The notes under the pieces were generated by a model. It was not told the DNA's origin and made no database searches. It was given only the letters and a program-made list of their open reading frames with translations. DNA of 64,000 nucleotides from Gammaproteobacteria bacterium (GTDB taxonomy: Bacteria > Pseudomonadota > Gammaproteobacteria > SURF-13): contig JACPZD010000024.1 of NCBI GenBank assembly GCA_016195665.1, positions 23,997 through 87,996 of the forward strand, in the 5' to 3' direction. This document shows, in pieces, positions 4,603 through 50,727 of the stretch. The number at the start of each line of letters is the position of its first letter. Position 1 is the stretch's first letter. The position numbers and the translations under genes were made by a program.

Positions 4603-6072
4603 TTAATAACGCGACGGGCGCGGCCAGGTAATCGGCTGATAGCCCGTGCAGTGTCTTGCGTAGAGGGTGCGCAGCACGGCGCCGTCGGGCGCATAGGCGG
4701 TCACCGGCGGGAGCAGCACGCAATGGGTGAAGGCGCGCAGTAATTCCGGCGGCGGTTCGGTGGAGGTACTTATGTACGCGCCATTACGCCCCGCCTCGCG
4801 TTCGATGCCGGGCCATAGATCGTGTTGATTGTAACGGCGCGTGGCGTTGCCGGTGATGTAAACAGGCATCGGGGTTAGCCAGTAAAAGGCCAGTTCGCCC
4901 GCTAGAGTATACGAATCGGTAAGAATAAATTCGATGGGCTTGCCCGCCTCCTCTAGGGCGATCTGCACTGTCGCCACCGGCGCCTGCCAGGCGCGCATTT
5001 TACGAAACGGGTCCTGCTGACTTGCCAAGCCAAAGCTATAGGGAAAATGGCCGATCGCGATCATCGTCAGCGACATGAACACCCCGACGTAAACAAACGC
5101 CCGCTTCACGCGCGCGAGATTGGGTAGCTGTCCCGCGAACAGAATCAGAAATCCGATATAACCCGGCGCCGCCCAGTTGAGTTGAACCTTGGCGCTGAAC
5201 GCCTTGATTAAAAAAAATCCTAACAGGAACAGCGACGAATACCACAAGAAGCGTTGCTGCTCGGATGCAGGCTTGCGCCATAACACGCTGGCCGCCGCCA
5301 ACACCACCAGCGGCGACAAGGTAAAAATTTGAGTCAGTGAAAAATCCAGCAGGCTGTTCAGCGACCATGTGTCATGCGCGACATGACCCAGCTCGTGACG
5401 AAACATGACCCAATCGTGCTGAGCGTTCCAGAGGACCACCGGGCTGAACAGGACCAGGGCCAGCAGCGCCGCCAGCCACGGATGGGGGGTCTTGAGTTGC
5501 TCGCGGCCGGCGCGGGTGAGCAGCAGCCACCCCCCAACAAAAACAGGCAGCAAGACTATGCTGAGCTTGGTCAGCCCTCCGAGGCCCGCCGCCGCGCCGA
5601 ACTCATACCACGCAAGTGACCGGCCGCGAAACAGCGCACGCCACGCGGCCCACAGACCCCATGTCCACAGCAGCAACAACAGGATGTCGGTGGTCATCAC
5701 CGATCCGAGAGTGAAGAACAGCGGCGTGGTGAGCCCCAACAGCAGCACCCACCCGCTCGCCGCGCGGCTGTTCCACACTTGTTGTGCAAAGTAGAACAAC
5801 AGAGCAAGGAAACCGCTGTAGGCCAACCAGGCGGGGAGGCGGGCTTGCCAGGCGCCGTGGCCGAATAGGGTTTCGGATAATGCAATCAGCCAAGCGACCA
5901 GCGGGCCCTTGGAATAATAAGACCAGTCAAGCTGGCGTGACCATTCCCAGTACTGGGCCTCATCGAAGTGCAGCTCCAGACCTGCGCTCTGCATCAGCAC
6001 GGCCTTGAGGAGCGGCAGGCTGAGTAAAAAAACCGGCAGGGCGAGGATGGCGCCTCTCTTGCCGAGCATCAT
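4603..6072 (-). CDS. glycosyltransferase family 39 (ArnT/PMT-like) polytopic membrane protein
   Basis: Real start is MMLGKRGAIL at 6072, overlapping the upstream stop as ATGA; the 678-aa track ORF is an artefactual N-extension. Motif DEAQYWEWSRQLDWSYYSKGP and more than 10 predicted TM segments. Confidence 0.8.
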   Translation of the reverse strand: MMLGKRGAILALPVFLLSLPLLKAVLMQSAGLELHFDEAQYWEWSRQLDWSYYSKGPLVAWLIALSETLFGHGAWQARLPAWLAYSGFLALLFYFAQQVWNSRAASGWVLLLGLTTPLFFTLGSVMTTDILLLLLWTWGLWAAWRALFRGRSLAWYEFGAAAGLGGLTKLSIVLLPVFVGGWLLLTRAGREQLKTPHPWLAALLALVLFSPVVLWNAQHDWVMFRHELGHVAHDTWSLNSLLDFSLTQIFTLSPLVVLAAASVLWRKPASEQQRFLWYSSLFLLGFFLIKAFSAKVQLNWAAPGYIGFLILFAGQLPNLARVKRAFVYVGVFMSLTMIAIGHFPYSFGLASQQDPFRKMRAWQAPVATVQIALEEAGKPIEFILTDSYTLAGELAFYWLTPMPVYITGNATRRYNQHDLWPGIEREAGRNGAYISTSTEPPPELLRAFTHCVLLPPVTAYAPDGAVLRTLYARHCTGYQPITWPRPSRY

Positions 6073-7085
6073 GCCGAATGCTTCCAGCCCGCCTCGGCTG
6101 ATTCCTCCGGACTTTCGGGGTTGCGCATGATATATGAGCGGGCCTGGCCCGATTCGAAATAGGTGCGGGCAATCAGTTCGCTTAACACACCGGTGGTGAG
6201 AAACTGCACGGCCATCACAATGAGCAATACGCTTATCATCAACAATGGACGAGTGCCGATGTTCTCCCCGAAAAAGATCTTGAGAATGAATAGATAACTC
6301 ATGCCGATGAAACCGATGACGCCGAACGCGAGTGCTATACCGCCGAAGTAGTGACCGGGGCGCGCGCGGAAGCGGATGAAGAAGTACACTGAAAGTAGGT
6401 CCATAATCACGCGGAAGGTGCGCGAGAGACCGTATTTGGAGACGCCGAATTGACGCGGCGAATGAGCGACGACTTCCTCCTTGATGCGCGAGGTTGCCGT
6501 GTGCGCGGCCATCCAGGCCGGGATGAAGCGGTGCATCTCGCCGTACAGGCGGACGTTCTTGATGACCTGCGCGCGATATACCTTGAGGCTGCACCCGTAA
6601 TCGTGCAGGCGCACCTCGGTCATCCGTCCGATCAGCCAATTGGCGATGCGCGAGGGAATGGTGCGCAGCCAGAGGCTGTCTTTGCGGTCTTTGCGCCAGC
6701 CGACCAGCAGATCGAGATCTTCGTCCAGCAGGCGCTGCACCATGCGCGGGATGTCGGCCGGGTCGTTTTGCAGGTCGCCGTCCAGCGTGACGATCACGTC
6801 GCCGCGCGCCGCATCAATGCCCGCCTGCATGGCAGCGGTCTGACCGAAGTTGCGTTGCAGAGTTATGCTGCGTACATGTCCGCCATATTGGGCGATGCCC
6901 TGCCGCATCACTCGTTCCGTGTCGTCTGTGCTGCCGTCACTGACCAGAATCAACTCCCACGGATGGCGATAACCGGCCAGTACCTCGTGCACGCGCGCGA
7001 GCAGCGGCGCGACGCTCTCCGCCTCGTTGTACAGAGGCACGACGAGCGAGACGCGGTGCGCGGTCAACTCAAGGGAAGTGTTCAT
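6069..7085 (-). CDS. GT2 polyprenol-phosphate sugar synthase (ArnC/GtrB-like)
   Basis: 338 aa; VSLVVPLYNE...ILVSDGSTD...TLDGDLQND cytoplasmic GT2 catalytic motifs plus two C-terminal TM helices, as in ArnC/DPM synthases. Confidence 0.85.
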   Translation of the reverse strand: MNTSLELTAHRVSLVVPLYNEAESVAPLLARVHEVLAGYRHPWELILVSDGSTDDTERVMRQGIAQYGGHVRSITLQRNFGQTAAMQAGIDAARGDVIVTLDGDLQNDPADIPRMVQRLLDEDLDLLVGWRKDRKDSLWLRTIPSRIANWLIGRMTEVRLHDYGCSLKVYRAQVIKNVRLYGEMHRFIPAWMAAHTATSRIKEEVVAHSPRQFGVSKYGLSRTFRVIMDLLSVYFFIRFRARPGHYFGGIALAFGVIGFIGMSYLFILKIFFGENIGTRPLLMISVLLIVMAVQFLTTGVLSELIARTYFESGQARSYIMRNPESPEESAEAGWKHSA

Positions 7086-7651
7086 GACGATAGCTGAGAG
7101 CGGGCCCGAATGCGGCGCATAAAATCAGAATATTGTACGCCGATGAGGGCGGCAAGGTAAGCCAGCAGGGTTCCGATCACGGCGCCGGTCAACACCTGAC
7201 TCGGATAGTGCTTGCCGAGATAGACACGGGAGATCGTGACTAATAGAGCGATGCTGAACAGCGTCAGCGCCCATCTGCGCGAACGGGTCATGAAACTCAT
7301 GAAGGTGGCTACCGCAAAAAAATTGAGCGCGTGGTTGGAAGGGATGCCGTTCAACTGAGATCCGCAGCGCCCGTTGGGCAGCCGCAGCAACTCAGCGATG
7401 ACATAGCACGGGCGCGGTTGCGCCCAGAGGTGTTTGGCCAGATTGCCAATCGCATCGCCGACGATGACCAGAGCAAGCAACGCCAGCCACAGCCGCACTC
7501 CATCCCGACCATACTGTTTTATGCTTAGCGCGAGCATAACGGCCAGCAGCGGAAAGGCGAAGGTGTTGCGGTCGGAAAGCCAGGAAAACAGGACATCATT
7601 CCAAGGATGCGCCCAGGACTGGTTGATCCAGACGAGCAGCGCCTCATCCAT
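7082..7651 (-). CDS. PAP2-family membrane phosphatase (variant motifs)
   Basis: 189 aa; KHLWAQPRP, IPSNH and SRVYLGKHYPSQ correspond to PAP2 motifs 1-3 with substitutions; 4-nt overlap with the upstream gene. Confidence 0.7.
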   Translation of the reverse strand: MDEALLVWINQSWAHPWNDVLFSWLSDRNTFAFPLLAVMLALSIKQYGRDGVRLWLALLALVIVGDAIGNLAKHLWAQPRPCYVIAELLRLPNGRCGSQLNGIPSNHALNFFAVATFMSFMTRSRRWALTLFSIALLVTISRVYLGKHYPSQVLTGAVIGTLLAYLAALIGVQYSDFMRRIRARSQLSS

Positions 7652-8627
7652 GTTGGGCAGGTCGTGAAAGCAATAGACTCAACGCACCGCCCAGCAGCGT
7701 GGTGGCCAGCAAGAATAAGTGCAGGTTGACAGCGGCCTTGAAGGCGGCCACGGCCGGTGCGCCGAACGGCAGTAAGGCCGCCACCACGCCCGCCTCGTAG
7801 GTGCCGGCGCCCGCGAAGGCGTGGATGGGCAGCACGCTGGTCACATCGCCGCCAATCACGCCGAGCCAGGCGGCGGCGAACGGGATCTCGATAAACAATC
7901 GCAACACCCAGACAAACACGCCCAGCTTGACGACCCAGTTGATGGCGGTCCACAGCCAGGCGCGCCAGAAGGCGCTGTGGCTGTATGGCAGGCTGGTTAA
8001 AATCTTGTGCAGCAGTCTGCGCGGACGGCCGCCCGGATGGGCGTTCATATAGTTGAGTAGCTTTGCATTAGCCAGAAACAGCAGATACGGCACGCTCAGC
8101 CATAGCAGGCACGCAGCGCCGGCATACGTCCAGGGCCGAAGAGTAATCCCCAGCGCGAGCAGCACCAGGGTGTGCAAGTCCAGCACCCGAAACCATAGCA
8201 GTGCGGGGGTGGAACGCATCAGCGGCACGTCGAAGTAGCGCTTCATGAGTATGGGGAAGGAAACCTCTCCGGTCCGCATCGGGAGCAGATTATTAAAAAA
8301 ATTATGCAGCAGCATGAGCTTGAGACAGGCCGCGAACGCCCCCCGCATTTCATCGCGGAAATAGTCATACAGACGCATGGCCCTGACCCAGTAAGTAAAA
8401 AACGTCAGTATAATAGCCAAGAATAATAGACTATAGGGCAAGGCCCGCCAGGGAGCGAGCAAATTCCGCCAACCGAAATAGAATTCGATCAGCGCCACGA
8501 AGGCGATGAAGAGAGCGATGCCTGTGAGATATGATAGCTTCACGAGGTAGTTTGGCGGGCTGGTTGGCGATGAGGGTGCTGACTCAGTGTAGGTGGCGCG
8601 AGCGCGCAGCGCAACCCTTTCTCCCAT
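7644..8627 (-). CDS. UPF0104 / lysyl-PG-synthase transmembrane-domain (flippase-like) membrane protein
   Basis: Polytopic membrane ORF (LSYLTGIALFIAFVALIEFYFGWRNL...). Start uncertain: alternatives are ATG at 8627 or GTG at 8541; the track ORF extends to 8687. Confidence 0.6.
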   Translation of the reverse strand: MGERVALRARATYTESAPSSPTSPPNYLVKLSYLTGIALFIAFVALIEFYFGWRNLLAPWRALPYSLLFLAIILTFFTYWVRAMRLYDYFRDEMRGAFAACLKLMLLHNFFNNLLPMRTGEVSFPILMKRYFDVPLMRSTPALLWFRVLDLHTLVLLALGITLRPWTYAGAACLLWLSVPYLLFLANAKLLNYMNAHPGGRPRRLLHKILTSLPYSHSAFWRAWLWTAINWVVKLGVFVWVLRLFIEIPFAAAWLGVIGGDVTSVLPIHAFAGAGTYEAGVVAALLPFGAPAVAAFKAAVNLHLFLLATTLLGGALSLLLSRPAQHG

Positions 8628-8657
8628 TCTACGAGGAAGATCATCAAGCAAAAACAA

Positions 8658-8726
8658 TTTACCGCAGAGGGCGCGGAGCTGAACCAAGTCTTTTTGAACT
8701 TATCTCTCCGCGCCCTCCGCGGTGAA
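8658..8726. repeat. hairpin repeat family B (TTCACCGCAGAGGGCGCGGAGGAG ... CTCCGCG.CCTC.GCGGTGAA), copy 1
   Basis: About 22-bp inverted arms around a 25-30-nt loop; four copies in the window (also 30788..30860, 42089..42158, 56494..56552). Confidence 0.7.
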
Positions 8727-8727
8727 T

Positions 8728-10356
8728 ATGGTTTTATCCGAAATGGACTCTAGGGCCCGCGACATGAACAGCCTCACTCGCTCCAACATAGGGCTTTACA
8801 CCCTGTTCGCCGCCTGTGTGCTGGCCGGTTTTTTTCTCAATATCCATGCGGTGCCGCTGTTCGATCTGGATGAGGGCGCCTTCAGCGAGGCCACCCGCGA
8901 GATGTTCGTGCGCGGCGATTTTATTTCCCCCTACCTGAATGGTGAGCCGCGTTACGACAAACCGGTGCTGATCCACTGGCTGCAGGCCGCGAGCGTCTGG
9001 AGCTTGGGGCTTAATGAATTGGCGTTGCGGTTACCCTCGGCCTTGGCGGCCGCGTTGTGGAGCTGGCTGATCTTTCTTTTCACAAAGCGGTACACGACCA
9101 CCGCCACGGCCTTGTATGCCGCCATCATCACGGCCAGCAGCTTGCAGGTCTCGCTCATCGCCAAGGCCGCCATCGCGGACGCCCTATTGAATCTGTTTCT
9201 CAGCGGTGCACTGTTTAGTATTTATCTTTTCTATCAGTCACGCGAACTGAGATATGTCTATCTCAGCGCCGCAGCCATGGCCCTGGGCTTTCTCACCAAG
9301 GGGCCGGTTGCGGTGGTCATACCACTCGCCGTGAGTCTGTTGTTTTTTTTGAGCAAGGGTGAATTCAGGACTTGGCTCATGGCGCTGTTTAATCTTCGTG
9401 CGATGGCGCTGTTCGGCCTGCTGGCCCTGCCCTGGTACGTCGCGCAGTACCTCAGAGAGGGCGACGCCTTTATCCAGGGGTTTTTTTTCAAGCATAATAT
9501 CGCCCGCTTTGGGGAAACCTTTGAGCAGCATGGCGGCGGGGTTTTTTATTATATCCCGGTCGTCCTCATCGGTCTGTTGCCTTATACCGCACTGCTGTTC
9601 AAAACCTTCACCCGTCTCGGCGAAATCGTCAACGATGATCTAAAACGTTACCTTCTGATATGGTTTTTATTCGTCCTGATATTTTTTTCGTTTTCCGGCA
9701 CCAAGCTGCCTCACTATGCGGTGTACGGCTATCCCGCCGCCATCATCTTGATGGCCATGTACCTGGACACATTGCGCTCCGGATTCATGATCCTTCTGCC
9801 GCCGCTGCTCTTGTTTACCGCCTTGCTGTTTCTCCCCGAACTGATTCATGCCTGGCTCGCGGCGGTGCAGGATGTGTTTATTCGAGACACATTGCGCGAT
9901 GCGGGCGATTACTTTTCATTCCCCTACAGATTATTTTTTTCGCTGGCCATTTTACTCACTGTGTACTTTATGTTTGAAAACCGGTTTAGCAATCCGGGAA
10001 AATTGTTGTGCAGCGGGCTCGTTACCGTGACGGGGGTGGCGCTGTTTGTGCTGCCGATAGCGGGGCAGATTTTGCAATCGCCCATCAAGGAGGCGGCGCT
10101 CATCGCCAAGCGGGCCGATTATGCGGTGGTCATGTGGGGACTGAACGCGCCGAGCTTTAATGTTTACAGCGAACGGCTGGTGGAGCGGCGCGAACCGCGC
10201 CCCGGCGAGATCGCACTGACCAAGTCGAGCTATCTGCCGCGCCTCAAGGGCTACGAGACGCTTTATTACAAAAACGGGATTGCGCTCATCCGTGTGAAGT
10301 CACGAATAGACGTATCAAGCCCGGCAGGGCCAGCATCAAACAGCTCAGCGCAATGA
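8728..10356 (+). CDS. ArnT-like (GT83) undecaprenyl-phosphate-sugar:lipid A glycosyltransferase
   Basis: N-terminal FDLDEGAFSEATREMFVRGDFISP matches the ArnT signature (DE.RYAEI.REM). About 12 TM segments. First ATG at 8728 lies inside the family B hairpin; alternative starts at 8743 or 8764. Confidence 0.8.
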   Translation: MVLSEMDSRARDMNSLTRSNIGLYTLFAACVLAGFFLNIHAVPLFDLDEGAFSEATREMFVRGDFISPYLNGEPRYDKPVLIHWLQAASVWSLGLNELALRLPSALAAALWSWLIFLFTKRYTTTATALYAAIITASSLQVSLIAKAAIADALLNLFLSGALFSIYLFYQSRELRYVYLSAAAMALGFLTKGPVAVVIPLAVSLLFFLSKGEFRTWLMALFNLRAMALFGLLALPWYVAQYLREGDAFIQGFFFKHNIARFGETFEQHGGGVFYYIPVVLIGLLPYTALLFKTFTRLGEIVNDDLKRYLLIWFLFVLIFFSFSGTKLPHYAVYGYPAAIILMAMYLDTLRSGFMILLPPLLLFTALLFLPELIHAWLAAVQDVFIRDTLRDAGDYFSFPYRLFFSLAILLTVYFMFENRFSNPGKLLCSGLVTVTGVALFVLPIAGQILQSPIKEAALIAKRADYAVVMWGLNAPSFNVYSERLVERREPRPGEIALTKSSYLPRLKGYETLYYKNGIALIRVKSRIDVSSPAGPASNSSAQ

Positions 10357-11062
10357 CGCGCTGCAATACTTGTGTATCCGCATAACTGGTCACCGGCCAC
10401 AGCAGCAGATACAGCGCCGCCAAGGCGAGCACCGCTGCGATCAGGCGCTGCGTGGCGATCTCCATGCCCCGCGGCCAGCGGCGCGCAAGCTCTATCGCCC
10501 ACACCGCGCTCATCCAGCCGAGCAGCGCCCCGCCCAGTACGTCGAGCGGCCAATGCACGCCCACCATGATGCGCGATAGCCCGACGGCGGCGGCGATGAG
10601 CAACAGGCCCGCCCCTAGCCATCCATTCTTAAAACCGAGTGCGACCACCCCCGCCCAGGCGAAGATAGTAGCCGTGTGGCCGGAGGGAAAGGCCGTGGCC
10701 TTGAGGGCGGGGCCGATGAGATGAAAGCTCTCGGGTGACAACACGGCCGGCGGACGTGCAACGCCGAACGCGAGTTTGAGGCCGACCACCAGCACGGTAC
10801 TGAGTAGACCGGCAATCATGGCTGCCCAGAGGATGTCCGGGCGCCGGCCCGCCAGCGGCAGCAGTAAGATCATGGCAATCCAGCCGTCACCCAGCATCGT
10901 CATGGCCGCCCACACAACATCGTCGGCGAACAGGCCCTGTTTATTAATCCACAGAAACAAGGTGCGATTGCTGCCGGTGATAACTATGGCCGCCATCGCG
11001 AGAACACCGGCGAGCGGCACCAGCCAGCGCCACGGGTTAGCAGGCCAAGCTGATGGACTCAT
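10286..11062 (-). CDS. PAP2-family phosphatase (canonical motifs)
   Basis: 258 aa; KLAFGVARPP, PSGHTA, SRIMVGVHWPLD are the three PAP2 motifs; 71-nt convergent overlap with the ArnT-like gene. Confidence 0.8.
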   Translation of the reverse strand: MSPSAWPANPWRWLVPLAGVLAMAAIVITGSNRTLFLWINKQGLFADDVVWAAMTMLGDGWIAMILLLPLAGRRPDILWAAMIAGLLSTVLVVGLKLAFGVARPPAVLSPESFHLIGPALKATAFPSGHTATIFAWAGVVALGFKNGWLGAGLLLIAAAVGLSRIMVGVHWPLDVLGGALLGWMSAVWAIELARRWPRGMEIATQRLIAAVLALAALYLLLWPVTSYADTQVLQRVIALSCLMLALPGLIRLFVTSHG

Positions 11063-11746
11063 GCCGGCTTTTCGTCCGCAAACACCAGACGTACTTGAGT
11101 CCCCTTGCCGCGGCTGCTGCGCAGATGGATGCGCCAGTTGTAGCGGTCGCAGATGCGCTTGACCAGGGGCAAGCCCATGCCTGCGCCGCCCGGGACGCCG
11201 GCGGTATTGCCGCCGCGAAAGTGGGGCTCGAATACATGCGGCAAGTCGGCGGAGGTAATCCCTACGCCCGTGTCTTCAATACTTATGCTGTCGGCGTCCA
11301 ATTGCACGTTCACCGCGCCGCACCCGCCGGGTGAGCGGATCGTACACCAGATCGGCCACCTGGATGATCGCCGAACCGGGAGTTGCCCCGCGCCGCGTCA
11401 GGGCCTGCAGGCGCGCCTCGATTTCCTGCAACGCAAAGGGTTTGACCACATAGTCATCCGCCCCGCTGTTAAATCCGGCGAGCTTTTCCGGCAAGGTGTC
11501 GCGGGCCGTCAGCATCAGCACCGGCGTATTCTTGCGTGCTTCTTGACGCAATTTTTGGCACAGGTCTACGCCGTCCATCCCCGGCAACATGAGATCGAGT
11601 ACAATGGCGTCGTAGTCGTTCACCACCGCCAGGTGCAGGCCGGTGATGCCATCTTCCGCTACGCTGACCATGTGCCCTTTGTCGCTGAAGAAATCCTGCA
11701 GGATGGACGTGATGCCCATATCGTCTTCTATAATCAGGATGCGCAT
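11059..11746 (-). pseudogene. deletion-fused remnant of a PmrA/BasR-type response regulator and PmrB/BasS-type histidine kinase
   Basis: 11276..11746 encodes an intact receiver domain and the first 20 residues or so of the OmpR winged helix (IQVADLVYDPLTRRVRRGERAI) then stops. 11059..11313, in another frame, encodes only the HATPase_c tail (VNVQLDADSISIEDTGVGI...GGAGMGLPLVKRI), closely PmrB-like. Junction around 11290..11313. Confidence 0.7.
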
Positions 11747-13981: not shown

Positions 13982-14914
13982 TTATAACGCGTAACCGAAA
14001 CTGTCCTTGAAGCGCGCCTCGAACTCGGCCTTTTCAAAGCGGTGATTTTGCGTGCCGTGCTGTTCGATCTTAATGGCGCCCATGAGCGCCGCGATGCGGC
14101 CGGTCGTGTCCCAATCCAGATCGTTCATCAAGCCGTACAAGAGACCAGCGCGGTAGGCGTCGCCGCAGCCGGTCGGATCGGCCAGGCGGCTGGGTTGGGC
14201 GACGGGGATGCCAAATGTTTTATCACCCGTGTAAATCGTTGAGCCTTTGGCGCCATGCGTCACAATCAGGGCTTGCATGGTGTGCATCAACTCGTCTATG
14301 GATTTGCCGGTGCGCTGCAGCACAAGTTGGAACTCATAGTCGTTGAAGGCCGCCCAGGTGGCCTGCTCCAAAAATTTCATCAGATCCGCTCCGTCGAACA
14401 TCGGCAGACCTTGACCGGGGTCAAAGACAAAAGGGATTCCCGTCTCGTGAAACTGCGCCGCGTGTTGAATCATTCCTTCGCGGCCATCCGGCGCGATGAT
14501 GCCGACCCTCACATCTTTTGCGTCCGTCACGCGGTTTTCATGGGCGTGGTTCATGGCGCCCGGATGAAATGCCGTGATCTGATTGTCGTCGAGGTCGGTG
14601 GTGATAAAGGCCTGCGCCGTAAAGGTGTCGGCGATCTCTTTGATGTGCTTCACGCCGACACCGCAGCGCAACAGCCATTCGCGGTAGGGCGTGAAGTCCT
14701 TTCCCACCGTGCCCATCGGCAACGCCTTGCCGCCCAACATGCTCAGATTGTAGGCGATGTTGCCCGCGCAGCCGCCGTACTCGCGGCGCAACTCCGGCAC
14801 CAGAAACGAAACGCTCAGGATATGCACCTGCTCCGGCAGGATGTGATTCTTGAAGCGGTCATGAAACACCATGATGGTGTCGTAGGCGAATGAACCGCAA
14901 ATGAGCGCTGCCAT
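13982..14914 (-). CDS. PfkB-family carbohydrate/nucleoside kinase
   Basis: Start taken at MAALICGSFAYD (the track ORF extends 20 codons further). GG and DTTGAGD-like motifs (PTGCGDAYRAG) typical of the ribokinase superfamily. Confidence 0.8.
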   Translation of the reverse strand: MAALICGSFAYDTIMVFHDRFKNHILPEQVHILSVSFLVPELRREYGGCAGNIAYNLSMLGGKALPMGTVGKDFTPYREWLLRCGVGVKHIKEIADTFTAQAFITTDLDDNQITAFHPGAMNHAHENRVTDAKDVRVGIIAPDGREGMIQHAAQFHETGIPFVFDPGQGLPMFDGADLMKFLEQATWAAFNDYEFQLVLQRTGKSIDELMHTMQALIVTHGAKGSTIYTGDKTFGIPVAQPSRLADPTGCGDAYRAGLLYGLMNDLDWDTTGRIAALMGAIKIEQHGTQNHRFEKAEFEARFKDSFGYAL

Positions 14915-14934
14915 GGAAATTCCTTCGGTCAGTG

Positions 14935-14956
14935 GTAGGGCCGAATTTATTCGGCC
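14935..14956. repeat. REP-like hairpin family A, copy 3
   Basis: GTAGGGCCGAATTTATTCGGCC between the kinase start and the dgkA stop. Confidence 0.6.
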
Positions 14957-14957
14957 T

Positions 14958-15332
14958 TCAATAAAACTTTTCAATGAAAATCACACCCCATATCACCAGG
15001 GCGTTGGTGAGCGTGAGCAACACCGCCGCCGAGGCCATGTCCTTGGCGCGGCCGGAAAGCGTGTGATGCTCGGTACCGATTCGATCTATCGCCGCCTCGA
15101 TGCTGGAGTTGATCACCTCCACGATCAGCACCAAAAACAGGCTGCCGAGCAGGAGGGCGCGTTCCATGGCGCCGCTTCCCAGCCATAAGGCGAGCGGGGC
15201 CATGATAAAAAACAGAATGATTTCGACACGAAACGCTGCCTCGTTGCGCCAAGTGGCGCGCAGTCCCGCAACGGAATAGTTAAAGGCCCGAACGAGGCGC
15301 TTGAATTCATTGGTTTGGTTGTGGTTGGCCAT
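14958..15332 (-). CDS. dgkA: diacylglycerol kinase
   Basis: Start at MANHNQTNEFKRLVRAFNYS...; three TM helices; ...SAIEAAIDRIG... DgkA signature. Confidence 0.85.
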   Translation of the reverse strand: MANHNQTNEFKRLVRAFNYSVAGLRATWRNEAAFRVEIILFFIMAPLALWLGSGAMERALLLGSLFLVLIVEVINSSIEAAIDRIGTEHHTLSGRAKDMASAAVLLTLTNALVIWGVIFIEKFY

Positions 15333-15449
15333 GGGCGGACACGAATAGCTCGGGCAAGATAACAGTAGTTTACGATTCAAGCAACATTACAGTTTAGTGA
15401 CAGTGCGGCTCACAAATTTATTTAGCTTAAGACTCTATTTCATTGAATT

Positions 15450-15472
15450 GTAACATCTCTGCTACAGACTAC
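15450..15472 (+). promoter_or_regulatory. weak Pho-box-like direct repeat (TTGTAAC-ATCT-CTGCTAC) upstream of the metallophosphoesterase gene
   Basis: Two CTG.A.C heptads with a 4-nt spacer, about 40 nt upstream of the ATG at 15505; resemblance to CTGTCAT-N4-CTGTCAT is only partial. Confidence 0.2.
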
Positions 15473-15504
15473 CGTAAGTTCGGGAGCGTCAAGAGGAGCT
15501 CGGT

Positions 15505-16317
15505 ATGACCAGCCCGCTGCACTTTAGAGCCATTTGGATATCCGATGTTCACCTCGGCATCCGCGCCTGCAAGGCGGAATTTCTTCTCGATTTTCTCAAG
15601 CAGACCCAATCCGATTATCTGTATCTGGTCGGCGACGTGATTGATCTCTGGAGCATGAAAACCTTTTGGTACTGGCCCAAACTGCACAATGACGTGGTGC
15701 AGACCATCCTGAACAAGGCCGCCAACGGCGCCAAGGTCATTTATGTCCCCGGTAACCATGATGAATTGTTTCGCGACTACGCGGGCCACACCTTTGGGAA
15801 GGTGCGCATCTGCACCGAGGCGGTACACAAAACGGCTGACGGGCGCAGGCTGCTGGTAATCCACGGCGATGAATTCGATAGTGTAGTGAAATATAGCAAG
15901 TGGCTCGCCAAGCTCGGCAGTGGGATGTACGAATTTCTATTGTTCGCCAACCGCGGCATCAACTTCTTCCGCCGCAAATTCGGTTTCCCTTATTGGTCGC
16001 TTGCCGCCTATCTGAAACATAAGGTGAAAAACGCCGTGAGCTATATCAGCAAGTTCGAAGAGGTCCTGGTGCACGAAGCCAGAAAACGCAAGCTGCACGG
16101 CGTTATTTGCGGGCATATCCATAAAGCGGCGATCGAAGACTTCGACGGCGTTCTGTATTGCAATGACGGCGACTGGGTGGAGAGCTGCACCGCGCTGGTG
16201 GAGCATCCCGACGGCGCCCTGGCGGTGATACGTTGGGCGGAAGAGAGTGTGTTTTTACTTAAGGAAGGAGAGTATGAAAATAGTTCTAGTCAGCGACGCC
16301 TGGTTTCCGCAGATTAA
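15505..16317 (+). CDS. calcineurin-like metallophosphoesterase, LpxH/PlcP-like
   Basis: 270 aa; ISDVHLG...YLVGDVIDLW...VPGNHDE...HGDEFD...GHIH metallophosphatase motifs in LpxH order. Confidence 0.75.
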   Translation: MTSPLHFRAIWISDVHLGIRACKAEFLLDFLKQTQSDYLYLVGDVIDLWSMKTFWYWPKLHNDVVQTILNKAANGAKVIYVPGNHDELFRDYAGHTFGKVRICTEAVHKTADGRRLLVIHGDEFDSVVKYSKWLAKLGSGMYEFLLFANRGINFFRRKFGFPYWSLAAYLKHKVKNAVSYISKFEEVLVHEARKRKLHGVICGHIHKAAIEDFDGVLYCNDGDWVESCTALVEHPDGALAVIRWAEESVFLLKEGEYENSSSQRRLVSAD

Positions 16318-17335
16318 CGGCGTCGTCACGACGCTCTTCAAAACCAAACAAGAGCTTGAAAAGCTCGGCCACCACGTCATCACTATCACGCCGGATCACT
16401 TCAAGACCATTCCCTGTCCAACTTACTCCGAAATCCGGCTTGCCATTGCCCCCTCTAAAAAGGTTCGCGAGTTATTAAAAACCTTCCAAGCGGATGCCGT
16501 ACACATCGCCACTGAAGGCCCGTTAGGTCTGGCGGCGCGCGCCTGGTGTCTAAAACAAAACTTTCCTTTTACCACTTCGTTTCACACCCGCTTTCCGGAA
16601 TATGTGAAGCTGCGTTTTCATATCCCGCTCGCGCTGACCTACGCCTTTCAGCGCTGGTTTCACGGCGCGGCCCAATACACCATGGTGGCGACCGAGGCGC
16701 TCAGACAAGAGTTGACGGAAAAGGGTTTTCCAAATCTGGTGATCTGGTCACGCGGCGTGGATACGGAATTATTCCGCCCACGCGAAAAAAAGTTACTGAC
16801 GTGTCCACGTCCGGTCTTTAGTTACCTTGGGCGCGTCGCGGTCGAAAAAAATATCGAGGCCTTTCTGAAACTCGATCTGCCCGGCACCAAGTACGTTATC
16901 GGCGATGGGCCGGACATGTCAAAGCTGATGCAGCGTTATCCCGAGGTCATTTTTGCCGGTTTCAAGACCGGCGAAGATCTCGCGCTGCACCTTGCGCAGG
17001 CCGATGTGTTCGTCTTTCCCAGTCGCACCGACACCTTCGGTCTGGTGGTGATCGAGGCGCTGGCTTGCGGCGTGCCAGTTGCCGCCTATCCCGTGCGCGG
17101 GCCGGCCGACATCATCGTCAGCGGTGAGTTCGGTTATCTGGATGAGGATTTACAAAACGCTGCGGTTAAGGCTCTGTCACTCGATCACGTAAGTTGCCGC
17201 GCAGCAGCCCTGAAGTACACCTGGGCGGCTTGTACGCAGCAATTTCTCAGCCATCTCAATCATACCCAGCAAGCGCAGGCCAAGGCACAGACCACTATGG
17301 TTGCCACACAAGATCCAACTCGCGTGCAGCCTTGA
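16274..17335 (+). CDS. glycosyltransferase family 4 (GT-B, retaining); overlaps the upstream gene by 44 nt
   Basis: [20 protein letters not shown]... N-terminus and C-terminal EX7E-like region ([22 protein letters not shown]) typical of GT4. Confidence 0.8.
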
Positions 17336-18743
17336 CATCATCCAGACGGCGCACCGGTGTGGTGTAGGGCGCCCCTTTCACCTGCTCAGGTGTGGCATGC
17401 GCCTCAGCAAGTATCTTTTGCATCGCGGTAATAAATCCATCCAGCTCCTCCTTGCTCTCGGTCTCGGTGGGTTCGATCAGCAAACACTCCGGCACGAGCA
17501 ACGGGAAATACGTGGTGGGTGCGTGATAGCCGTAATCGAGCAAACGCTTCGCGACATCCATTGTGGACACACCGGTTTCATCCTTGAGTTTTTTCAGGGT
17601 GAGAATGAACTCGTGCGTCGCACGCCGGTTGGGATAGGCCGCCTGATAGCCGAGCCGGGTCAACTTCGCCATCAGGTAATTGGCGTTCAGCGTGGCGAAC
17701 TCGGCTACCCTGGGCATGCCTTCACGGCCCAGCAGCCGCGCGTACACATAGGCACGCAACAGCACGCCGGCGTTGCCCATGTGTGCCGATAAACGACCGA
17801 TGCTCTGCGGATAATCCTTTTCCGTGAGCCAGCGGTAAACACCTTCTTTTTCCTTGCCCACGATGGGGATGGGAAGAAACGGCAGCAAGCGATCATTCAC
17901 ACCCACCGGCCCCGCGCCCGGCCCACCGCCGCCGTGCGGCGTGGAGAAGGTCTTGTGCAGATTCATGTGGATTACGTCGAAGCCCATGTCGCCGGGCTTT
18001 ACCTTGCCGAGAATGGCGTTGAGATTGGCGCCGTCGTAGTAGAGCAGCCCACCCGCATCATGCACAATTTTTTGTACCTGTTGAATATCCTTTTCAAACA
18101 CGCCCAATGTCGAGGGGTTGGTGAGCATCAGGCCCGCCGTGTGCGACCCCACCGCGGCGCGCAATTGCTCAAGATCAATATCGCCATCGCCGTCGGTGGG
18201 AATCTCGCGCACCGTGTAGCCGCACATCGCGGCGGTGGCGGGGTTGGTGCCGTGCGCGGCATCGGGCGCCAGGATTTCGCTGCGCGCCGTGTCGCCGCGC
18301 GCATCGTGATAGGCGCGGATCATGGCCACCCCCGCGAATTCGCCCTGTGCTCCGGCCATCGGCGTAAGCGACACCGCCTTCATGCCCGTCACGTCCTTGA
18401 GCATTTCCTGCAACTCGTACATGCACGCCAAAAATCCCTGGCTGTAGCTTTCCGGTGCGCCCGGATGTCTCCCCGAAAAACCCGGCAACAGCGCGAGCTT
18501 GTTGCACGCACGCGGGTTGTACTTCATGGTGCAGGAGCCGAGCGGATAGAAGTGCGTGTCTATCGAGAAGTTCTTCTGCGACAACTTTGTATAATGCCGC
18601 ACGGCCTGCATCTCGGAGACTTCAGGTAACAAGGGGCGCCGCGCGCGGCGCAGATGTTGCGGAATGTCCGTCGCTTCCGGTTTGTCGAGCGGTGACTGCG
18701 AGGAATTAATGCGGCCCTGCTGCGAATGTTCAAAAATCAACAT
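17295..18743 (-). CDS. gcvPB: glycine dehydrogenase (decarboxylating) subunit 2
   Basis: Start at [10 protein letters not shown]; PLP-lysine region [16 protein letters not shown]. Confidence 0.9.
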
Positions 18744-22539: not shown

Positions 22540-22586
22540 TAAAAAAGGGCGATGCGTGTACGACTGCTCGCACACCCATCGCCCCT
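22540..22586 (-). terminator. intrinsic terminator-type expression platform of the glycine riboswitch
   Basis: Minus strand reads GGGCGATGGGTGTGCGAGCAGTCGTACACGCATCGCCC followed by TTTTTTATT, between the aptamers and the gcvT start. Confidence 0.5.
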
Positions 22587-22589
22587 CTG

Positions 22590-22765
22590 TCCTGTTACCT
22601 GAGAGTTTTATCCCCTTCGGTGCCCGGCAACACACATCGAGTCGTATCGCCGGATCTCTCCAGAATTTATATTACCCTGCGGTCCTTTTGCCTGAGCGTT
22701 TCCGGGCGGTTGCGCCTTCGGCGCCCCGTCATGTTTTTCTATGACGGGGGCTCTCCCACAGGGTA
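22590..22765 (-). ncRNA. tandem glycine riboswitch (two aptamers) in the gcvT leader
   Basis: Minus strand: aptamer 1 GGGAGAGCCCC...GGCGCCGAAGGCGCAACC...CTCAGGCAAAAGGACCGCAG; aptamer 2 CTGGAGAGATCC...GCACCGAAGGGGATAA...CTCTCAGGTAACAGGACAG; both match the glycine riboswitch consensus. Confidence 0.85.
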
Positions 22766-22818
22766 AACATCAGCGCCTACTATACTATGGAGGGCCAAGC
22801 TCTTGCCAGTGTAAAAAC

Positions 22819-47172: not shown

Positions 47173-48147
47173 TCATTGGTTAAGGTTAAAGGACATCGTC
47201 CTGGGCTGGCCGTTACGGAGAATGCTGATGTTCACCTGACTGGCTGAGCCCAGTTTGCCTACCGCCTCCAGCCCCTTGGCCGGATTATCCAGCACGACCC
47301 CATTAACCGTCGTGATTATATCCCCAGGCTCCAGGCCAAAGCGCGGCAAAAAGGTAGGGTCGTTGCCGGCGTTGATACGATAGCCCAGTTGCCGGCTTCC
47401 CTCAGTCACCGGCTCGGCCTTTGCCACGCCCGCCAGCACCCGAGGATTGGTCTGCAGGGCATCCCGATAGCTGCGCAATATCGAAAGGGTCTCCGCATTC
47501 TGTTCCGGGCTGGGCGCTTTAGTCCCGGCGGCAGACGCTGCGGGGACAGGGACGGGCGGCTGCTGCGGCTCGGGAACAGGCGCGGGCGGAGGCGGCGGCA
47601 CAGCATCGACCGGCACCGCCACAGGGATGTTCGCATCCGTACCCTCCCTGGGCAGGCGCAACACTTCATCCTGATTATTGCGCACCAGGATGATCCGGTC
47701 CGTGTAGACTTCCTTTAGCTTCGCCCCGCCGGGCAACTCGGCATTGATGGCATAGTAATCTTCCTTACCGCCCTGATCCGCGATGATCGCCCGCGCGCTG
47801 GCCGGATTGTCGGCGGCAATCACACCGCGCAGCAGCAGATTGAGTGGCGTTACCGGAATCTCCGCGGGCGCGGCCGGCGCCTTGGGGGGCTCAAACTTGC
47901 CGAACAGGTGCAGGGCGCTGATCTCCGGTAAGATTTGAGCGGGCGCGGCCGCCGTGCCGGGACCCCCCAGCGGGATGGCGGGAACCTGATAGGCGTAACG
48001 CGGCCCCGACCACAGCGCCCAGGTCAACTGCGCGAGACTGTGCCCCACCCCCAGCGCCAGCAGCAGACCCGCGATGACCGGCAAATAGTCGAGGTAGGGT
48101 CCCTGCCACTGCGACGGTATCAAGCCGCTTTTCCAGTTCAGTTTCAA
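47173..48147 (-). CDS. gspC: type II secretion protein C (PDZ-containing)
   Basis: 324 aa, N-terminal TM, Pro-rich linker, C-terminal PDZ-like region; first gene of the operon. Confidence 0.75.
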   Translation of the reverse strand: MKLNWKSGLIPSQWQGPYLDYLPVIAGLLLALGVGHSLAQLTWALWSGPRYAYQVPAIPLGGPGTAAAPAQILPEISALHLFGKFEPPKAPAAPAEIPVTPLNLLLRGVIAADNPASARAIIADQGGKEDYYAINAELPGGAKLKEVYTDRIILVRNNQDEVLRLPREGTDANIPVAVPVDAVPPPPPAPVPEPQQPPVPVPAASAAGTKAPSPEQNAETLSILRSYRDALQTNPRVLAGVAKAEPVTEGSRQLGYRINAGNDPTFLPRFGLEPGDIITTVNGVVLDNPAKGLEAVGKLGSASQVNISILRNGQPRTMSFNLNQ

Positions 48148-48337
48148 TCTAACGCGTGCCTAAAGGTCTGATTAAGATAATAATTGTTGTGGTAAGACGA
48201 TGAATTATAACATAGTGCCGCGCTGGATCCGGCGTATACAGAACAACGTGCTAGGGTGAGAAGACTGGCCTATGGGAAAAACTATAGCAGAACTGCGCCT
48301 AAAGATAGCCTAGTTATCAGTCCGATTCCACCCCTAT

Positions 48338-48438
48338 ACATGAACCTGCGGCCGAAGGCCGCACCGACTCTCCTTCTCCCCTGGCGGGAGAAGGTGGCCC
48401 GAAGGGCCGGATGAGGGAGAAACCGCCCGGTTCATGGG
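48338..48438. repeat. composite REP-like element with flanking inverted repeats CATGAACC / GGTTCATG and three internal palindromes
   Basis: Internal palindromes GCGGCCGAAGGCCGC, CTTCTCCCCTGGCGGGAGAAG, GGCCCGAAGGGCC. A related hairpin CCCTTCTCCCTGGGGGAGAAGGG occurs at about 29855..29880. Confidence 0.5.
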
Positions 48439-48555
48439 CTCAATTCGGGCGCAAAATCGGCGACGGCGGTCTCTCTGAGATGCAGCGGGCTTGCATTGCT
48501 TAACGATGACGCACAGAGTTCTCTCCCGTACAGCCTGCATAACCTGAGCATAAGC

Positions 48556-49311: not shown

Positions 49312-49427
49312 CGCCATAAATCTACTGCGCGTCTTTGATGCGGGTGCGTGCGGTGCTCGGAATCCTCATGTACTTCTATGTACACTCCGGTTCCTGCGCT
49401 CCGCCGCCCCCGCCTGAAACCCGCTCG

Positions 49428-49841: not shown

Positions 49842-50212
49842 TAGTTAGACTGAGTATTCACGTTTCTCTCCTATGGAAACTCTGAAAATTCCATCCGTCG
49901 AATTTTCACGCGAATAGCACAGACAGTGAAGATGCACATCGTCTGACTCCTCGAACAATTCTTCTCACCGTCGTGCTACTAAGCTAGACTTAACCCCTTA
50001 TCCCGCTTTTTACAATCGGCAACGCATCCATCAGTCTCTGGGTTTCAAGAGTCCTGCGAGCTACGAGGCGATGGCGGCTTAACTACGTGTCCGTGAAACC
50101 GGGGGTAGCTCAATCTTATCTATTCCGAAACGACGGTCCTGCCAAATATGGCGGTGCACGACCTGACGCCGCTGTTCTGCCGTCGCAGAGACACTACAAG
50201 ACCCTGGCTTAT

Positions 50213-50572: not shown

Positions 50573-50727
50573 GATAGTTCTCCTAAGTTAAAAAACATTT
50601 ACTTATAAAAACCTTCTTGGTGATTGAAGCATTTATAAACTACCATTAAGCATAGAGATACAGAAGTACAATATCTGTAGTGTTCAAATCGACACCAAGT
50701 TACTGAATTAACTGAGGAGTGTACAAA

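What the first reader, a model, noticed from the sequence alone, without database searches (positions are those of the whole stretch)
14958..17335. Candidate phosphate-sparing lipid remodelling locus: dgkA divergent from a PlcP/LpxH-like metallophosphoesterase and a GT4 glycosyltransferase
A calcineurin-like phosphoesterase with LpxH-type motif order is translationally coupled (44-nt overlap) to a GT4 glycosyltransferase, and diacylglycerol kinase is transcribed divergently. This matches the PlcP (phospholipase C) / Agt (glycosyl-diacylglycerol synthase) pair described in alphaproteobacteria and marine bacteria for replacing phospholipids with glycolipids under phosphate limitation. DgkA would recycle the diacylglycerol intermediate. 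A weak Pho-box-like direct repeat lies upstream at about 15450. Alternatively the phosphoesterase could be a second LpxH-type enzyme.
Basis: inference. Interest (0 to 1): 0.5.

Follow-up and report, generated by a model that had tools for sequence, protein, structure and literature searches.

The report
PlcP–Agt phosphate-sparing lipid operon with dgkA
This is an ordinary but clear copy of a known bacterial gene set that swaps phosphorus-containing membrane lipids for sugar lipids when phosphate runs short, here sitting back-to-back with a diacylglycerol kinase gene and a phosphate-starvation control site.

Summary
dgkA (14958-15332, minus) is divergent from a 270-aa metallophosphoesterase (15505-16317), which overlaps a 353-aa GT4 glycosyltransferase (16274-17335) by 44 nt.

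The phosphoesterase is not LpxH. It scores 37-39 bits against LpxH equivalog cut-offs of 134 and 190, and is 25% identical to LpxH. It is 56% identical to P. aeruginosa PlcP (PA3219) and 48% to the founding S. meliloti PlcP (SMc00171).

The glycosyltransferase is 49% identical to P. aeruginosa Agt1 (PA3218). It carries the Agt-clade motifs GRVAxEKN and FPSxTDTFG and the His104/Asp dyad. An agt orthologue follows plcP in 72 of 80 related genome loci.

A near-consensus Pho box sits at 15386-15403 on the opposite strand, facing dgkA. It is the only match with 2 or fewer mismatches in the 64 kb (0.05 expected at 1 mismatch).

A lipid kinase flanks plcP in 37 of 80 loci: DgkA in 5 and an unrelated DAGK_cat/YegS-type kinase in 32. 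The dgkA link is therefore probably functional, as in the published Burkholderia plcP-agt-dagK operon.

Verdict: a new member of a known system, in an uncultured gammaproteobacterium. Low-to-moderate interest.

The parts
14958..15332 (-). dgkA, an integral-membrane diacylglycerol kinase of 124 aa. The mechanical ORF extends to a TTG at 15380, but the ATG at 15332 is the likely start.
   Evidence: Pfam PF01219 E 2.9e-34. Matches E. coli DgkA structures (3ZE3 and others) at E 4e-33, 49% identity over 116 aa. Called as 124 aa on identical public contigs.
15333..15504 (.). 172-bp divergent control region between dgkA and plcP.
   Evidence: Sequence read directly. No sigma-70 consensus promoter passes the scan. 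28% of columns vary among three close relatives, but two blocks are invariant.
15386..15403 (-). Near-consensus Pho box, CTGTCAC-TAAA-CTGTAAT, oriented towards dgkA.
   Evidence: 1 mismatch to CTGTCAYNNNNCTGTCAY. It is the only hit with 2 or fewer mismatches in 64 kb on both strands, with 0.05 expected at 1 mismatch or fewer. Both half-sites are invariant in L086, L088 and L089, with only the spacer varying.
15356..15384 (-). Possible dgkA promoter: TTGCTT (15379-15384), a 17-nt spacer, then TATCTT (15356-15361), directly downstream of the Pho box.
   Evidence: Inference from alignment A1 and the list of variable positions. The TTGCTT hexamer is invariant in the close relatives. TATCTT is kept apart from one change at 15358 (TATGTT in L086/L088). 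7 of the 17 spacer positions vary. It is too weak to pass the promoter scan.
15437..15454 (+). Weak Pho-box-like direct repeat, ATTTCAT-TGAA-TTGTAAC.
   Evidence: 4 mismatches to consensus, not significant alone. The TTGTAAC core is conserved out to L004 and L005 (82% and 77% PlcP identity), where the rest of the spacer does not align. It sits in the usual position range of plus-strand Pho boxes upstream of plcP orthologues.
15465..15470 (+). Candidate -10 hexamer CAGACT for plcP-agt, exactly 10 nt after TTGTAAC.
   Evidence: Inference. An A2/T6 hexamer lies 10 nt after TTGTAAC in every lineage of alignment A1 except L006: CAAACT, CAGACT, CATAGT and GATGAT. The 10-nt spacing of E. coli PhoB-dependent promoters is from my own knowledge.
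15505..16317 (+). plcP, an intracellular phospholipase C of the LpxH-like metallophosphoesterase type, 270 aa.
   Evidence: Metallophos domains. 56% identical to PA3219 and 48% to SMc00171. Below the LpxH equivalog cut-offs. Metal ligands conserved. More than 8000 homologues found, the listed ones at up to about 70% identity across Gammaproteobacteria.
16274..17335 (+). agt, a DAG-dependent GT4 glycosyl-diacylglycerol synthase of 353 aa, overlapping plcP by 44 nt.
   Evidence: Matches Glyco_transf_4 and Glycos_transf_1. 49% identical to PA3218/Agt1. Motifs GRVAVEKN (186), FPSRTDTFG (248) and His104 are present. GGAG Shine-Dalgarno at 16267-16270. An orthologue lies immediately downstream of plcP in 72 of 80 loci.

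Best explanation
The locus is a PlcP-Agt membrane-lipid remodelling module in an uncultured gammaproteobacterium. Its nearest relatives are MAGs labelled Gammaproteobacteria and Acidiferrobacteraceae. The steps below are inferred from homology, not shown here.

1. Induction. Under phosphate limitation, PhoB binds the 172-bp divergent control region. That region holds a near-consensus Pho box at 15386-15403 and a weak, conserved one at 15437-15454. PhoB then switches on plcP-agt.
2. Phospholipid cleavage. PlcP, a binuclear-metal phosphoesterase related to LpxH, cleaves membrane phospholipids. The products are diacylglycerol (DAG) and a phospho-head group, whose phosphate can be reclaimed.
3. 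Glycolipid synthesis. The translationally coupled Agt transfers glucose and/or glucuronate from a UDP-sugar onto DAG. This gives phosphorus-free glycosyl-DAG lipids (MGDG and/or GADG).
4. DgkA. The divergent dgkA is probably co-regulated through the Pho box that faces it. It most likely acts as a DAG overflow valve, converting excess bilayer-disrupting DAG back to phosphatidate.
For: Identity to characterised proteins:
- 56% to PA3219 PlcP, 49% to PA3218 Agt1, 48% to SMc00171 PlcP.
- The reference loci were authenticated by their neighbours: cyaB next to the P. aeruginosa pair, and AHL synthase plus a LuxR-type regulator next to the S. meliloti gene.
- The PA3219 to SMc00171 identity I measured (46.6%) matches the published 46%.

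Not LpxH: 38.8 and 37.1 bits against cut-offs of 134 and 190.

Functional residues: metal ligands intact. Agt-clade motifs and the His104/Asp dyad present.

Gene order: agt follows plcP in 72 of 80 genome loci, often overlapping it.

Pho boxes:
- One near-consensus Pho box in the window, 0.05 expected, with invariant half-sites in relatives.
- plcP upstream regions across 83 loci are enriched for Pho boxes. At 2 or fewer mismatches there are 16 on the plus strand and 6 on the minus strand, against 0.2 expected per strand.

Kinase link:
- dgkA lies divergent from plcP in L004, L005, L006 and L058, and downstream of agt in L078.
- A non-homologous DAGK_cat kinase lies divergent from plcP in 32 of 80 loci.

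Literature:
- PlcP-Agt pathway validated in P. aeruginosa, in SAR11 and Phaeobacter, and in Methylosinus.
- B. cenocepacia plcP-agt-dagK operon.
- DagK listed as PHO-dependent in P. putida.
Against: - There are no expression or lipid data for this organism.
- The strong Pho box faces dgkA, not plcP. Its spacing to either candidate dgkA -10 element is not the canonical 10 nt.
- That box is absent from the next relatives L004 and L005.
- The plcP-facing site has 4 mismatches and is not significant alone.
- The sugar specificity of Agt cannot be read from sequence. P. aeruginosa Agt1 makes only MGDG, whereas SAR11 GTcp is broad.
- Re-phosphorylating DAG costs ATP phosphate, so the benefit of inducing DgkA under phosphate starvation is not obvious.
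- dgkA may be the cell's only, housekeeping copy.
Confidence: 0.85

Rival explanations
1. The phosphoesterase is a second or divergent LpxH-type UDP-2,3-diacylglucosamine pyrophosphatase. The GT4 enzyme would then act on a lipid A or LPS intermediate rather than on DAG.
For: LpxH is the nearest solved structure (E 1.4e-07) and the top NCBIfam hit. Public annotation calls the whole family 'UDP-2,3-diacylglucosamine diphosphatase'. An LPS or lipid A modification-like cluster lies 4-10 kb upstream.
Against: - Scores are 3.5- to 5-fold below the LpxH equivalog cut-offs.
- Identity is 25% to LpxH against 48-56% to validated PlcPs.
- The identically annotated P. aeruginosa and S. meliloti proteins are the experimentally shown PlcPs.
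- The downstream GT carries the motifs of the DAG-dependent Agt clade.
- No operon link to the upstream LPS-like cluster: a DsbH-like gene and pfkB intervene.
Confidence: 0.04
2. plcP-agt is a genuine remodelling pair, but the dgkA adjacency is incidental. On this view dgkA is a housekeeping gene, and the strong Pho box serves only plcP-agt (acting bidirectionally), represses dgkA, or is a chance match.
For: - Only 5 of 80 plcP loci have DgkA nearby.
- The box is not conserved in L004 or L005.
- Its spacing to candidate dgkA -10 elements is non-canonical.
- Repressing DAG re-phosphorylation during phosphate starvation would make physiological sense.
Against: - A lipid kinase from one of two unrelated families flanks plcP in 37 of 80 loci, 36 of them in the same divergent position.
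- Kinase-facing Pho-like sites are enriched: 4 or fewer mismatches in 21 of 32 loci against 5.2 expected.
- Burkholderia DagK is co-operonic with plcP-agt and induced by Pi depletion.
- P. putida DagK is listed as PHO-dependent.
- Chance expectation for the box is 0.05 per window.
Confidence: 0.25
3. The module makes glycolipids constitutively, or in response to another stress such as envelope stress, acid or host conditions, and is not under Pho control.
For: The plcP-facing Pho-like site is weak. In B. cenocepacia the pathway also matters for intracellular survival and phagosome acidification.
Against: A near-consensus Pho box lies in the shared control region. Pho boxes are strongly enriched upstream of orthologues. 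Every characterised PlcP-Agt system I read about is induced by phosphate limitation.
Confidence: 0.08

Closest known systems
Pseudomonas aeruginosa PA3219-PA3218 (PlcP-Agt1) lipid renovation operon (Jones et al. 2021, bioRxiv 10.1101/2021.04.14.439775)
   Same: Same two-gene order with overlapping reading frames. PlcP is 56% and Agt 49% identical. A Pho box lies in the upstream region. Both hosts are gammaproteobacteria.
   Different: - P. aeruginosa has a 4-nt overlap against 44 nt here.
- Its Pho box is on the plcP strand at about -107.
- No DAG kinase lies within 5 kb.
- A second enzyme, Agt2 (PA0842), makes GADG there. Whether this organism has one is unknown.
Burkholderia cenocepacia plcP-agt-dagK operon (BCAL2364-2366; bioRxiv 10.1101/2023.05.30.542800)
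   Same: The same three functions are linked, and all three proteins are induced by Pi depletion. A Burkholderiaceae locus (L078) shows plcP-agt followed by a DgkA-type kinase that is 45% identical to the window DgkA.
   Different: There dgkA is the third gene of the operon on the same strand. Here it is divergent, has its own Pho-box-adjacent promoter region, and is followed by pfkB.
Sinorhizobium meliloti PlcP (SMc00171), the founding member of the family
   Same: 48% identical over 261 aa, with the same metal-binding motifs and the WYWP and GDWVESCTA signatures.
   Different: The S. meliloti gene stands alone beside AHL synthase and LuxR-type regulator genes, with no adjacent agt. According to the literature its DAG feeds betaine-lipid (DGTS) synthesis.
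SAR11 HTCC7211 GTcp / Agrobacterium Agt (GT4 glycosyl-DAG synthases; PMC8231724, PMC4796936)
   Same: GT-B GT4 architecture, motifs GRVAxEKN and FPSxTDTFG, the His104/Asp dyad, and a position immediately downstream of plcP.
   Different: I could not obtain these sequences, so direct identity is untested. Their donor range (Glc, Gal, GlcA) may differ from this enzyme's.
LpxH (UDP-2,3-diacylglucosamine pyrophosphatase of lipid A synthesis)
   Same: Same calcineurin-like fold, the same order of metal-binding motifs, and an inserted helical region at the place where LpxH has an insertion.
   Different: 25% identity. Scores are 37-39 bits against cut-offs of 134 and 190. The insertion sequence differs, and PlcP-specific WYWP and C-terminal GDWVESCTA motifs are present. 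The substrate is a phospholipid, not UDP-DAGn.

Membership tests
PlcP (LpxH-like intracellular phospholipase C) | Calcineurin-like metallophosphoesterase domain with intact metal-binding motifs (DxH, GD, GNHD/E, H, GHxH). | tested here: met
   Pfam Metallophos and Metallophos_2. D14, H16, D44, N84, H120, H204 and H206 are invariant in an alignment with PA3219, SMc00171 and LpxH.
PlcP (LpxH-like intracellular phospholipase C) | Strong full-length similarity to an experimentally validated PlcP. The published survey criterion was BLASTP E below 1e-40 to Phaeobacter MED193 PlcP. | tested here: met
   E 1e-103 and 56% identity to PA3219; E 9e-95 and 48% to SMc00171. This is higher than the identity between those two references (46.6%). 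The MED193 sequence itself was not available, so validated surrogates were used.
PlcP (LpxH-like intracellular phospholipase C) | Distinct from bona fide LpxH. | tested here: met
   NF003743 scores 38.8 bits against a cut-off of 134. TIGR01854 scores 37.1 against 190.35. Identity to LpxH is 25%.
PlcP (LpxH-like intracellular phospholipase C) | Genomic linkage to a gene for phosphorus-free lipid synthesis (agt, pgt or btaAB). | tested here: met
   agt overlaps the plcP stop codon. The same arrangement is seen in 72 of 80 related loci and is the 'type 2' arrangement of Sebastian et al..
PlcP (LpxH-like intracellular phospholipase C) | Pho box or PhoB control of the promoter. | tested here: inconclusive
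   A near-consensus box lies in the shared intergenic region but on the dgkA-facing strand. The plcP-facing site has 4 mismatches, though its core is conserved. No binding or expression data exist.
PlcP (LpxH-like intracellular phospholipase C) | Phospholipase C activity releasing DAG, and a requirement for it in lipid remodelling under phosphate limitation. | not testable with these tools
   This needs an enzyme assay, a mutant and lipidomics.
Agt clade of GT4 (DAG-dependent glycosyl-diacylglycerol synthases) | GT-B GT4 domains plus the clade motifs GRVAxEKN and FPSxTDTFG, and the His104/Asp catalytic dyad (PMC8231724). | tested here: met
   Matches Glyco_transf_4 and Glycos_transf_1. GRVAVEKN at 186, FPSRTDTFG at 248 (Asp253), and His104 in SFHTRFPEY.
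Agt clade of GT4 (DAG-dependent glycosyl-diacylglycerol synthases) | Close similarity to a biochemically validated Agt. The clade is reported to be under 25% identical to other GT4 enzymes. | tested here: met
   49% identity over 327 aa, E 1e-110, to P. aeruginosa Agt1/PA3218. Other NCBIfam GT4 equivalogs all score far below their cut-offs.
Agt clade of GT4 (DAG-dependent glycosyl-diacylglycerol synthases) | Product identity (MGDG, GADG or both). | not testable with these tools
   Donor specificity differs among characterised members and cannot be assigned from the sequence features I examined.
DgkA (prokaryotic integral-membrane diacylglycerol kinase) | Full-length DAGK_prokar domain and close similarity to E. 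coli DgkA. | tested here: met
   PF01219 covers positions 1-102 of 102, E 2.9e-34. E 4e-33 to PDB 3ZE3, 49% identity over 116 aa.
LpxH (lipid A UDP-2,3-diacylglucosamine pyrophosphatase) | Score at or above the curated equivalog cut-off (TIGR01854 or NF003743). | tested here: not met
   37.1 against 190.35 bits and 38.8 against 134 bits. Not filed as LpxH.
LpxG (Chlamydia-type metallophosphoesterase of lipid A synthesis) | Similarity to characterised LpxG. | not tested
   No LpxG sequence or model was available in the tools used. The strong PlcP match makes membership unlikely.

The most novel reading that the evidence does not exclude
A DAG kinase may be an integral, Pho-regulated third component of PlcP-Agt lipid remodelling across Proteobacteria. 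It would be supplied by non-orthologous displacement: membrane DgkA in this gammaproteobacterial lineage, an Ectothiorhodospiraceae MAG and Burkholderiaceae, and a soluble DAGK_cat/YegS-type kinase in many alphaproteobacteria. In 36 of the 37 kinase-bearing loci it occupies the same divergent position upstream of plcP. Its role (a DAG safety valve, or a route to re-channel acyl chains into selected phospholipids during phosphate stress) has not been dissected in any paper I could find.
Probability: 0.5. Interest if true: 0.45.

Novelty: new member of a known kind. Interest (0 to 1): 0.22.

Why it matters
The finding adds a clear PlcP-Agt remodelling locus to an uncultured gammaproteobacterial lineage near the Acidiferrobacteraceae. 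It implies these organisms can lower their phosphorus quota by replacing phospholipids with glycolipids.

It is also a worked example of a common annotation error. Every public copy of this family that carried a source name is labelled as an LpxH-type enzyme (UDP-2,3-diacylglucosamine diphosphatase, hydrolase or pyrophosphatase) or generically as a metallophosphoesterase, not as PlcP.

The only part that goes beyond routine is the kinase pattern. Lipid kinases of two unrelated families sit divergently next to plcP, often with Pho-box-like sites facing them. This makes the unexplained role of DAG re-phosphorylation during phosphate starvation experimentally approachable.

Tried and rejected
- **LpxH assignment.** Tested with the NCBIfam equivalogs, PDB sequences and pairwise BLAST, and rejected.
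- **A second LpxH in the window.** tblastn with an LpxH fragment finds only the plcP gene itself. This is uninformative for the whole genome.
- **Sigma-70 promoter scan of 14800-17500.** No hits. This fits activator-dependent promoters but is weak evidence.
- **Pho-box scan at 3 mismatches.** 12 hits against 11.6 expected, which is noise. Only the 1-mismatch site stands out.
It varies among close relatives, so I dropped it from the model.
- **Conservation of the strong box.** It is not found in L004 or L005, so Pho control of dgkA may be specific to this lineage.
- **Other reference sequences.** I could not obtain Phaeobacter MED193 PlcP, HTCC7211 or Atu2297 Agt, or PA0842 Agt2. Placement relative to those proteins, and sugar specificity, are therefore untested.
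- **SMc00171 literature.** A search for SMc00171 plus diacylglycerol returned nothing.
- **Structure prediction and large profile searches.** Judged unnecessary and not run.
Full report
**1. Observation**

The ORF table shows three genes at the stated coordinates.
- dgkA lies on the minus strand at 14958-15380.
- A 270-aa ORF lies at 15505-16317 on the plus strand.
- A glycosyltransferase ORF ends at 17335.

Start sites and overlaps:
- The dgkA ORF's mechanical TTG start is probably wrong. The ATG at 15332 gives a 124-aa protein beginning MANHNQ. Gene calls on identical public contigs (L084, L085) give the same 124, 270 and 353 aa products.
- The GT start is the ATG at 16274, preceded by GGAG. 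The overlap with the upstream stop codon is exactly 44 nt.

Domain hits:
- dgkA matches DAGK_prokar at E 2.9e-34.
- The 270-aa protein matches Metallophos and Metallophos_2.
- The GT matches Glyco_transf_4 plus Glycos_transf_1.
- DgkA matches E. coli DgkA crystal structures at E 4e-33 and is 49% identical over 116 residues.

**2. What the phosphoesterase is**

It is a distant LpxH relative only.
- Its best solved relatives are LpxH chains at E 1.4e-07.
- The two NCBIfam LpxH equivalog models score 38.8 and 37.1 bits against cut-offs of 134 and 190.

More than 8000 homologues exist. The listed ones reach about 60-70% identity across Gammaproteobacteria such as Nitrosococcus, Methylotetracoccus and Acidiferrobacteraceae. 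Where a source name is given, it is an LpxH-type or generic metallophosphoesterase label.

A tblastn against PLSDB found chromosomal pieces deposited as 'plasmids' that hold reference genes.
- A P. aeruginosa record holds the gene pair directly upstream of cyaB, that is PA3219-PA3218-PA3217.
- An S. meliloti replicon holds the gene next to an AHL synthase and a LuxR-type regulator, that is SMc00171. The PA3217 = cyaB and SMc00168/SMc00170 = sinI/sinR assignments are from my own knowledge.
- The two reference proteins are 46.6% identical to each other. This matches the 46% published for PA3219 against S. meliloti PlcP and authenticates them.

The window protein is 56% identical to PA3219 (E 1e-103) and 48% to SMc00171 (E 9e-95), but only 25% to LpxH. 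All seven metal ligands are conserved. PlcP-specific signatures (WYWP, GDWVESCTA) are shared with the references and absent from the LpxH fragment. It is a PlcP, not an LpxH.

**3. What the glycosyltransferase is**

- It is 49% identical over 327 residues (E 1e-110) to P. aeruginosa PA3218/Agt1. That enzyme was shown to make monoglucosyl-DAG.
- It carries the two UDP-sugar motifs described for the Agt/GTcp clade, GRVAxEKN and FPSxTDTFG. It also has the His104/Asp dyad at matching positions.
- Its best NCBIfam hits are lipid glycosyltransferases, all far below cut-off.
- Sugar specificity (Glc, GlcA or both) cannot be inferred.

**4. Conservation of the arrangement**

A scan of one genome per species returned 80 loci at 56-82% PlcP identity.
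- In 72 of them an Agt orthologue (47-79% identical) lies immediately downstream on the same strand, often overlapping plcP.
- The closest relatives keep the whole block. L004 and L005 have pfkB-dgkA<>plcP-agt, with gcvPB also visible in L005; L006 keeps dgkA<>plcP-agt-gcvPB without pfkB. Closer metagenomic contigs L086 to L089 (93-96% identical) show the same order.
- On this basis the organism is an uncultured gammaproteobacterium whose nearest labelled relatives are 'Gammaproteobacteria' and Acidiferrobacteraceae MAGs.

**5. The dgkA link**

DgkA also flanks plcP in two further lineages.
- In an Ectothiorhodospiraceae MAG (L058) it is divergent from plcP, and the agt orthologue lies further along the dgkA strand.
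- In a Burkholderiaceae MAG (L078) it is the third gene after plcP-agt.

The L078 arrangement is that of the published B. cenocepacia plcP-agt-dagK operon, whose three proteins rise under Pi depletion.

I also inspected loci that have minus-strand Pho boxes upstream of plcP. In 32 of 80 loci, mostly Rhodospirillales and other alphaproteobacteria, a roughly 300-aa DAGK_cat plus YegS_C lipid kinase is transcribed divergently, 100-340 bp from plcP. This kinase is unrelated to DgkA.

Altogether 37 of 80 plcP loci have a putative DAG kinase next door. Two non-homologous families are involved, and 36 of the 37 share the same divergent geometry. That argues for a functional link rather than coincidence. 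Lidbury et al. list DagK with PlcP among PHO-dependent lipid-remodelling proteins in P. putida. Sebastian et al. do not mention a kinase. What the kinase does in the pathway is not addressed in the papers I read. My 'DAG overflow valve' role is inference.

**6. Regulation**

The strong, dgkA-facing box:
- The consensus quoted in the P. aeruginosa paper is CTGTCATNNNNCTGTCAT. I allowed C or T at each half-site end.
- The window has one site with 2 or fewer mismatches: CTGTCAC-TAAA-CTGTAAT at 15386-15403 on the minus strand. It has 1 mismatch, with 0.05 expected.
- It lies in the dgkA-plcP spacer, 54 bp from the dgkA ATG, and points towards dgkA.
- Among three distinct close relatives, 28% of spacer columns vary but none of the 14 half-site positions do. 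The chance of that is about 0.01 under a uniform model.
- Directly downstream of the box, TTGCTT-17 nt-TATCTT is nearly conserved (one change in TATCTT), with a variable spacer. This looks like a weak -35/-10 pair for dgkA, but that is inference and it does not pass the scan.
- Either candidate -10 places the box 3 or 14 bp off the canonical PhoB position, which is my own knowledge of E. coli pho promoters. The mode of control, and even the target promoter, is therefore not settled.

The weak, plcP-facing site:
It has 4 mismatches and is not significant alone.
- It lies in a 26-bp invariant block, and its TTGTAAC core persists in L004 and L005, where nothing else aligns.
- In each of those lineages a hexamer with A at position 2 and T at position 6 follows exactly 10 nt later. 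That is the classic Pho-promoter spacing (inference).

Across all loci:
- plcP upstream regions are strongly enriched for Pho boxes. At 2 or fewer mismatches there are 16 on the plus strand and 6 on the minus strand, against 0.2 expected per strand.
- Kinase-facing sites are enriched in the alphaproteobacterial spacers. Sites with 4 or fewer mismatches occur in 21 of 32 against 5.2 expected.

I conclude that Pho control of the locus is likely, about 0.65. Both divergent promoters are probably PhoB-responsive.

**7. Mechanism**

Shown: the gene identities, the translational coupling, the conserved synteny and the Pho-box statistics.

Inferred from homology and literature:
1. PhoB induces the locus at low Pi.
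2. PlcP cleaves phospholipid to DAG and a phospho-head group.
3. Agt combines UDP-Glc or UDP-GlcA with DAG to give MGDG or GADG.
4. DgkA removes surplus DAG as phosphatidate.

**8. Comparison and novelty**

This is the known PlcP-Agt lipid renovation pathway in a new lineage. Its gene layout is closest to the 'type 2' arrangement of Sebastian et al., and its three-gene content matches Burkholderia. It is a new member of a known kind.

The LpxH alternative fails a defining test. LpxG was not tested.

The modestly new element is the widespread association of two unrelated lipid-kinase families with plcP, which I followed up only partly.

**9. Verdict**

Interest is 0.22. Confidence in the PlcP-Agt assignment is 0.85.

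Noticed in passing
L012:6876-7796 (minus), and the equivalent position in 31 other loci (L008, L010, L011, L013, L015, L017-L020, L024-L026, L030, L032-L034, L037, L040, L042, L046, L047, L049, L050, L052, L053, L056, L059, L060, L063, L065, L074): A roughly 300-aa DAGK_cat plus YegS_C lipid kinase, unrelated to DgkA, is transcribed divergently 100-340 bp upstream of plcP in 32 of 80 genome loci. Pho-box-like sites facing the kinase are enriched. It occupies the same position as dgkA in the window.
   Followed up: partly
window 4603-11062: A cluster of envelope-modification-type genes: two PMT_2 (ArnT-like) glycosyltransferases, a GT2, an LPG_synthase_TM protein and a PAP2 phosphatase. It may be an LPS or lipid A modification locus. 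It is separate from the plcP operon.
   Followed up: partly
window 11059-11746 (minus): A 156-aa response-regulator receiver ORF ends just as the DNA-binding domain should begin. It is followed by an ORF holding only the C-terminal 84 aa or so of a histidine kinase. This looks like a decayed or internally deleted two-component system next to the PAP2/ArnT-like cluster.
   Followed up: no
window 22577-22768 (minus): A tandem glycine riboswitch (two aptamers, 70 and 47 bits) lies upstream of gcvT-gcvH-gcvPA-gcvPB. This is ordinary.
   Followed up: no
window 17295-17335: agt and gcvPB converge, and their 3' ends overlap by 41 nt with no terminator-like hairpin between them. The same overlap is present on the identical public contigs.
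   Followed up: no
window 13982-14914 (minus): A PfkB-family kinase of 310 aa starts 43 nt after the dgkA stop on the same strand. It is syntenic with dgkA in L004, L005, L086 and L089, so it may be co-transcribed with dgkA. Its best NCBIfam hit is a nucleoside kinase, far below cut-off.
   Followed up: no
window 48000-52000 and 49368-49441: A low-GC patch (0.48-0.54 against about 0.60 elsewhere) contains a hit to the Xanthomonas sRNA family sX9 just above its gathering score, 48.3 against 44 bits.
   Followed up: no
L068:6906-7700 and L041:6831-7820 (minus); L019:7008-9054; L058:5657-7862: Other plcP neighbourhoods differ. In two Pelagibius/Kiloniellaceae loci a DUF1045 gene, of the type found in phosphonate operons, is divergent from plcP with a Pho box. 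L019 has two tandem agt paralogues. L058 has dgkA and agt on the strand opposite plcP, plus a second, distant GT downstream of plcP.
   Followed up: no
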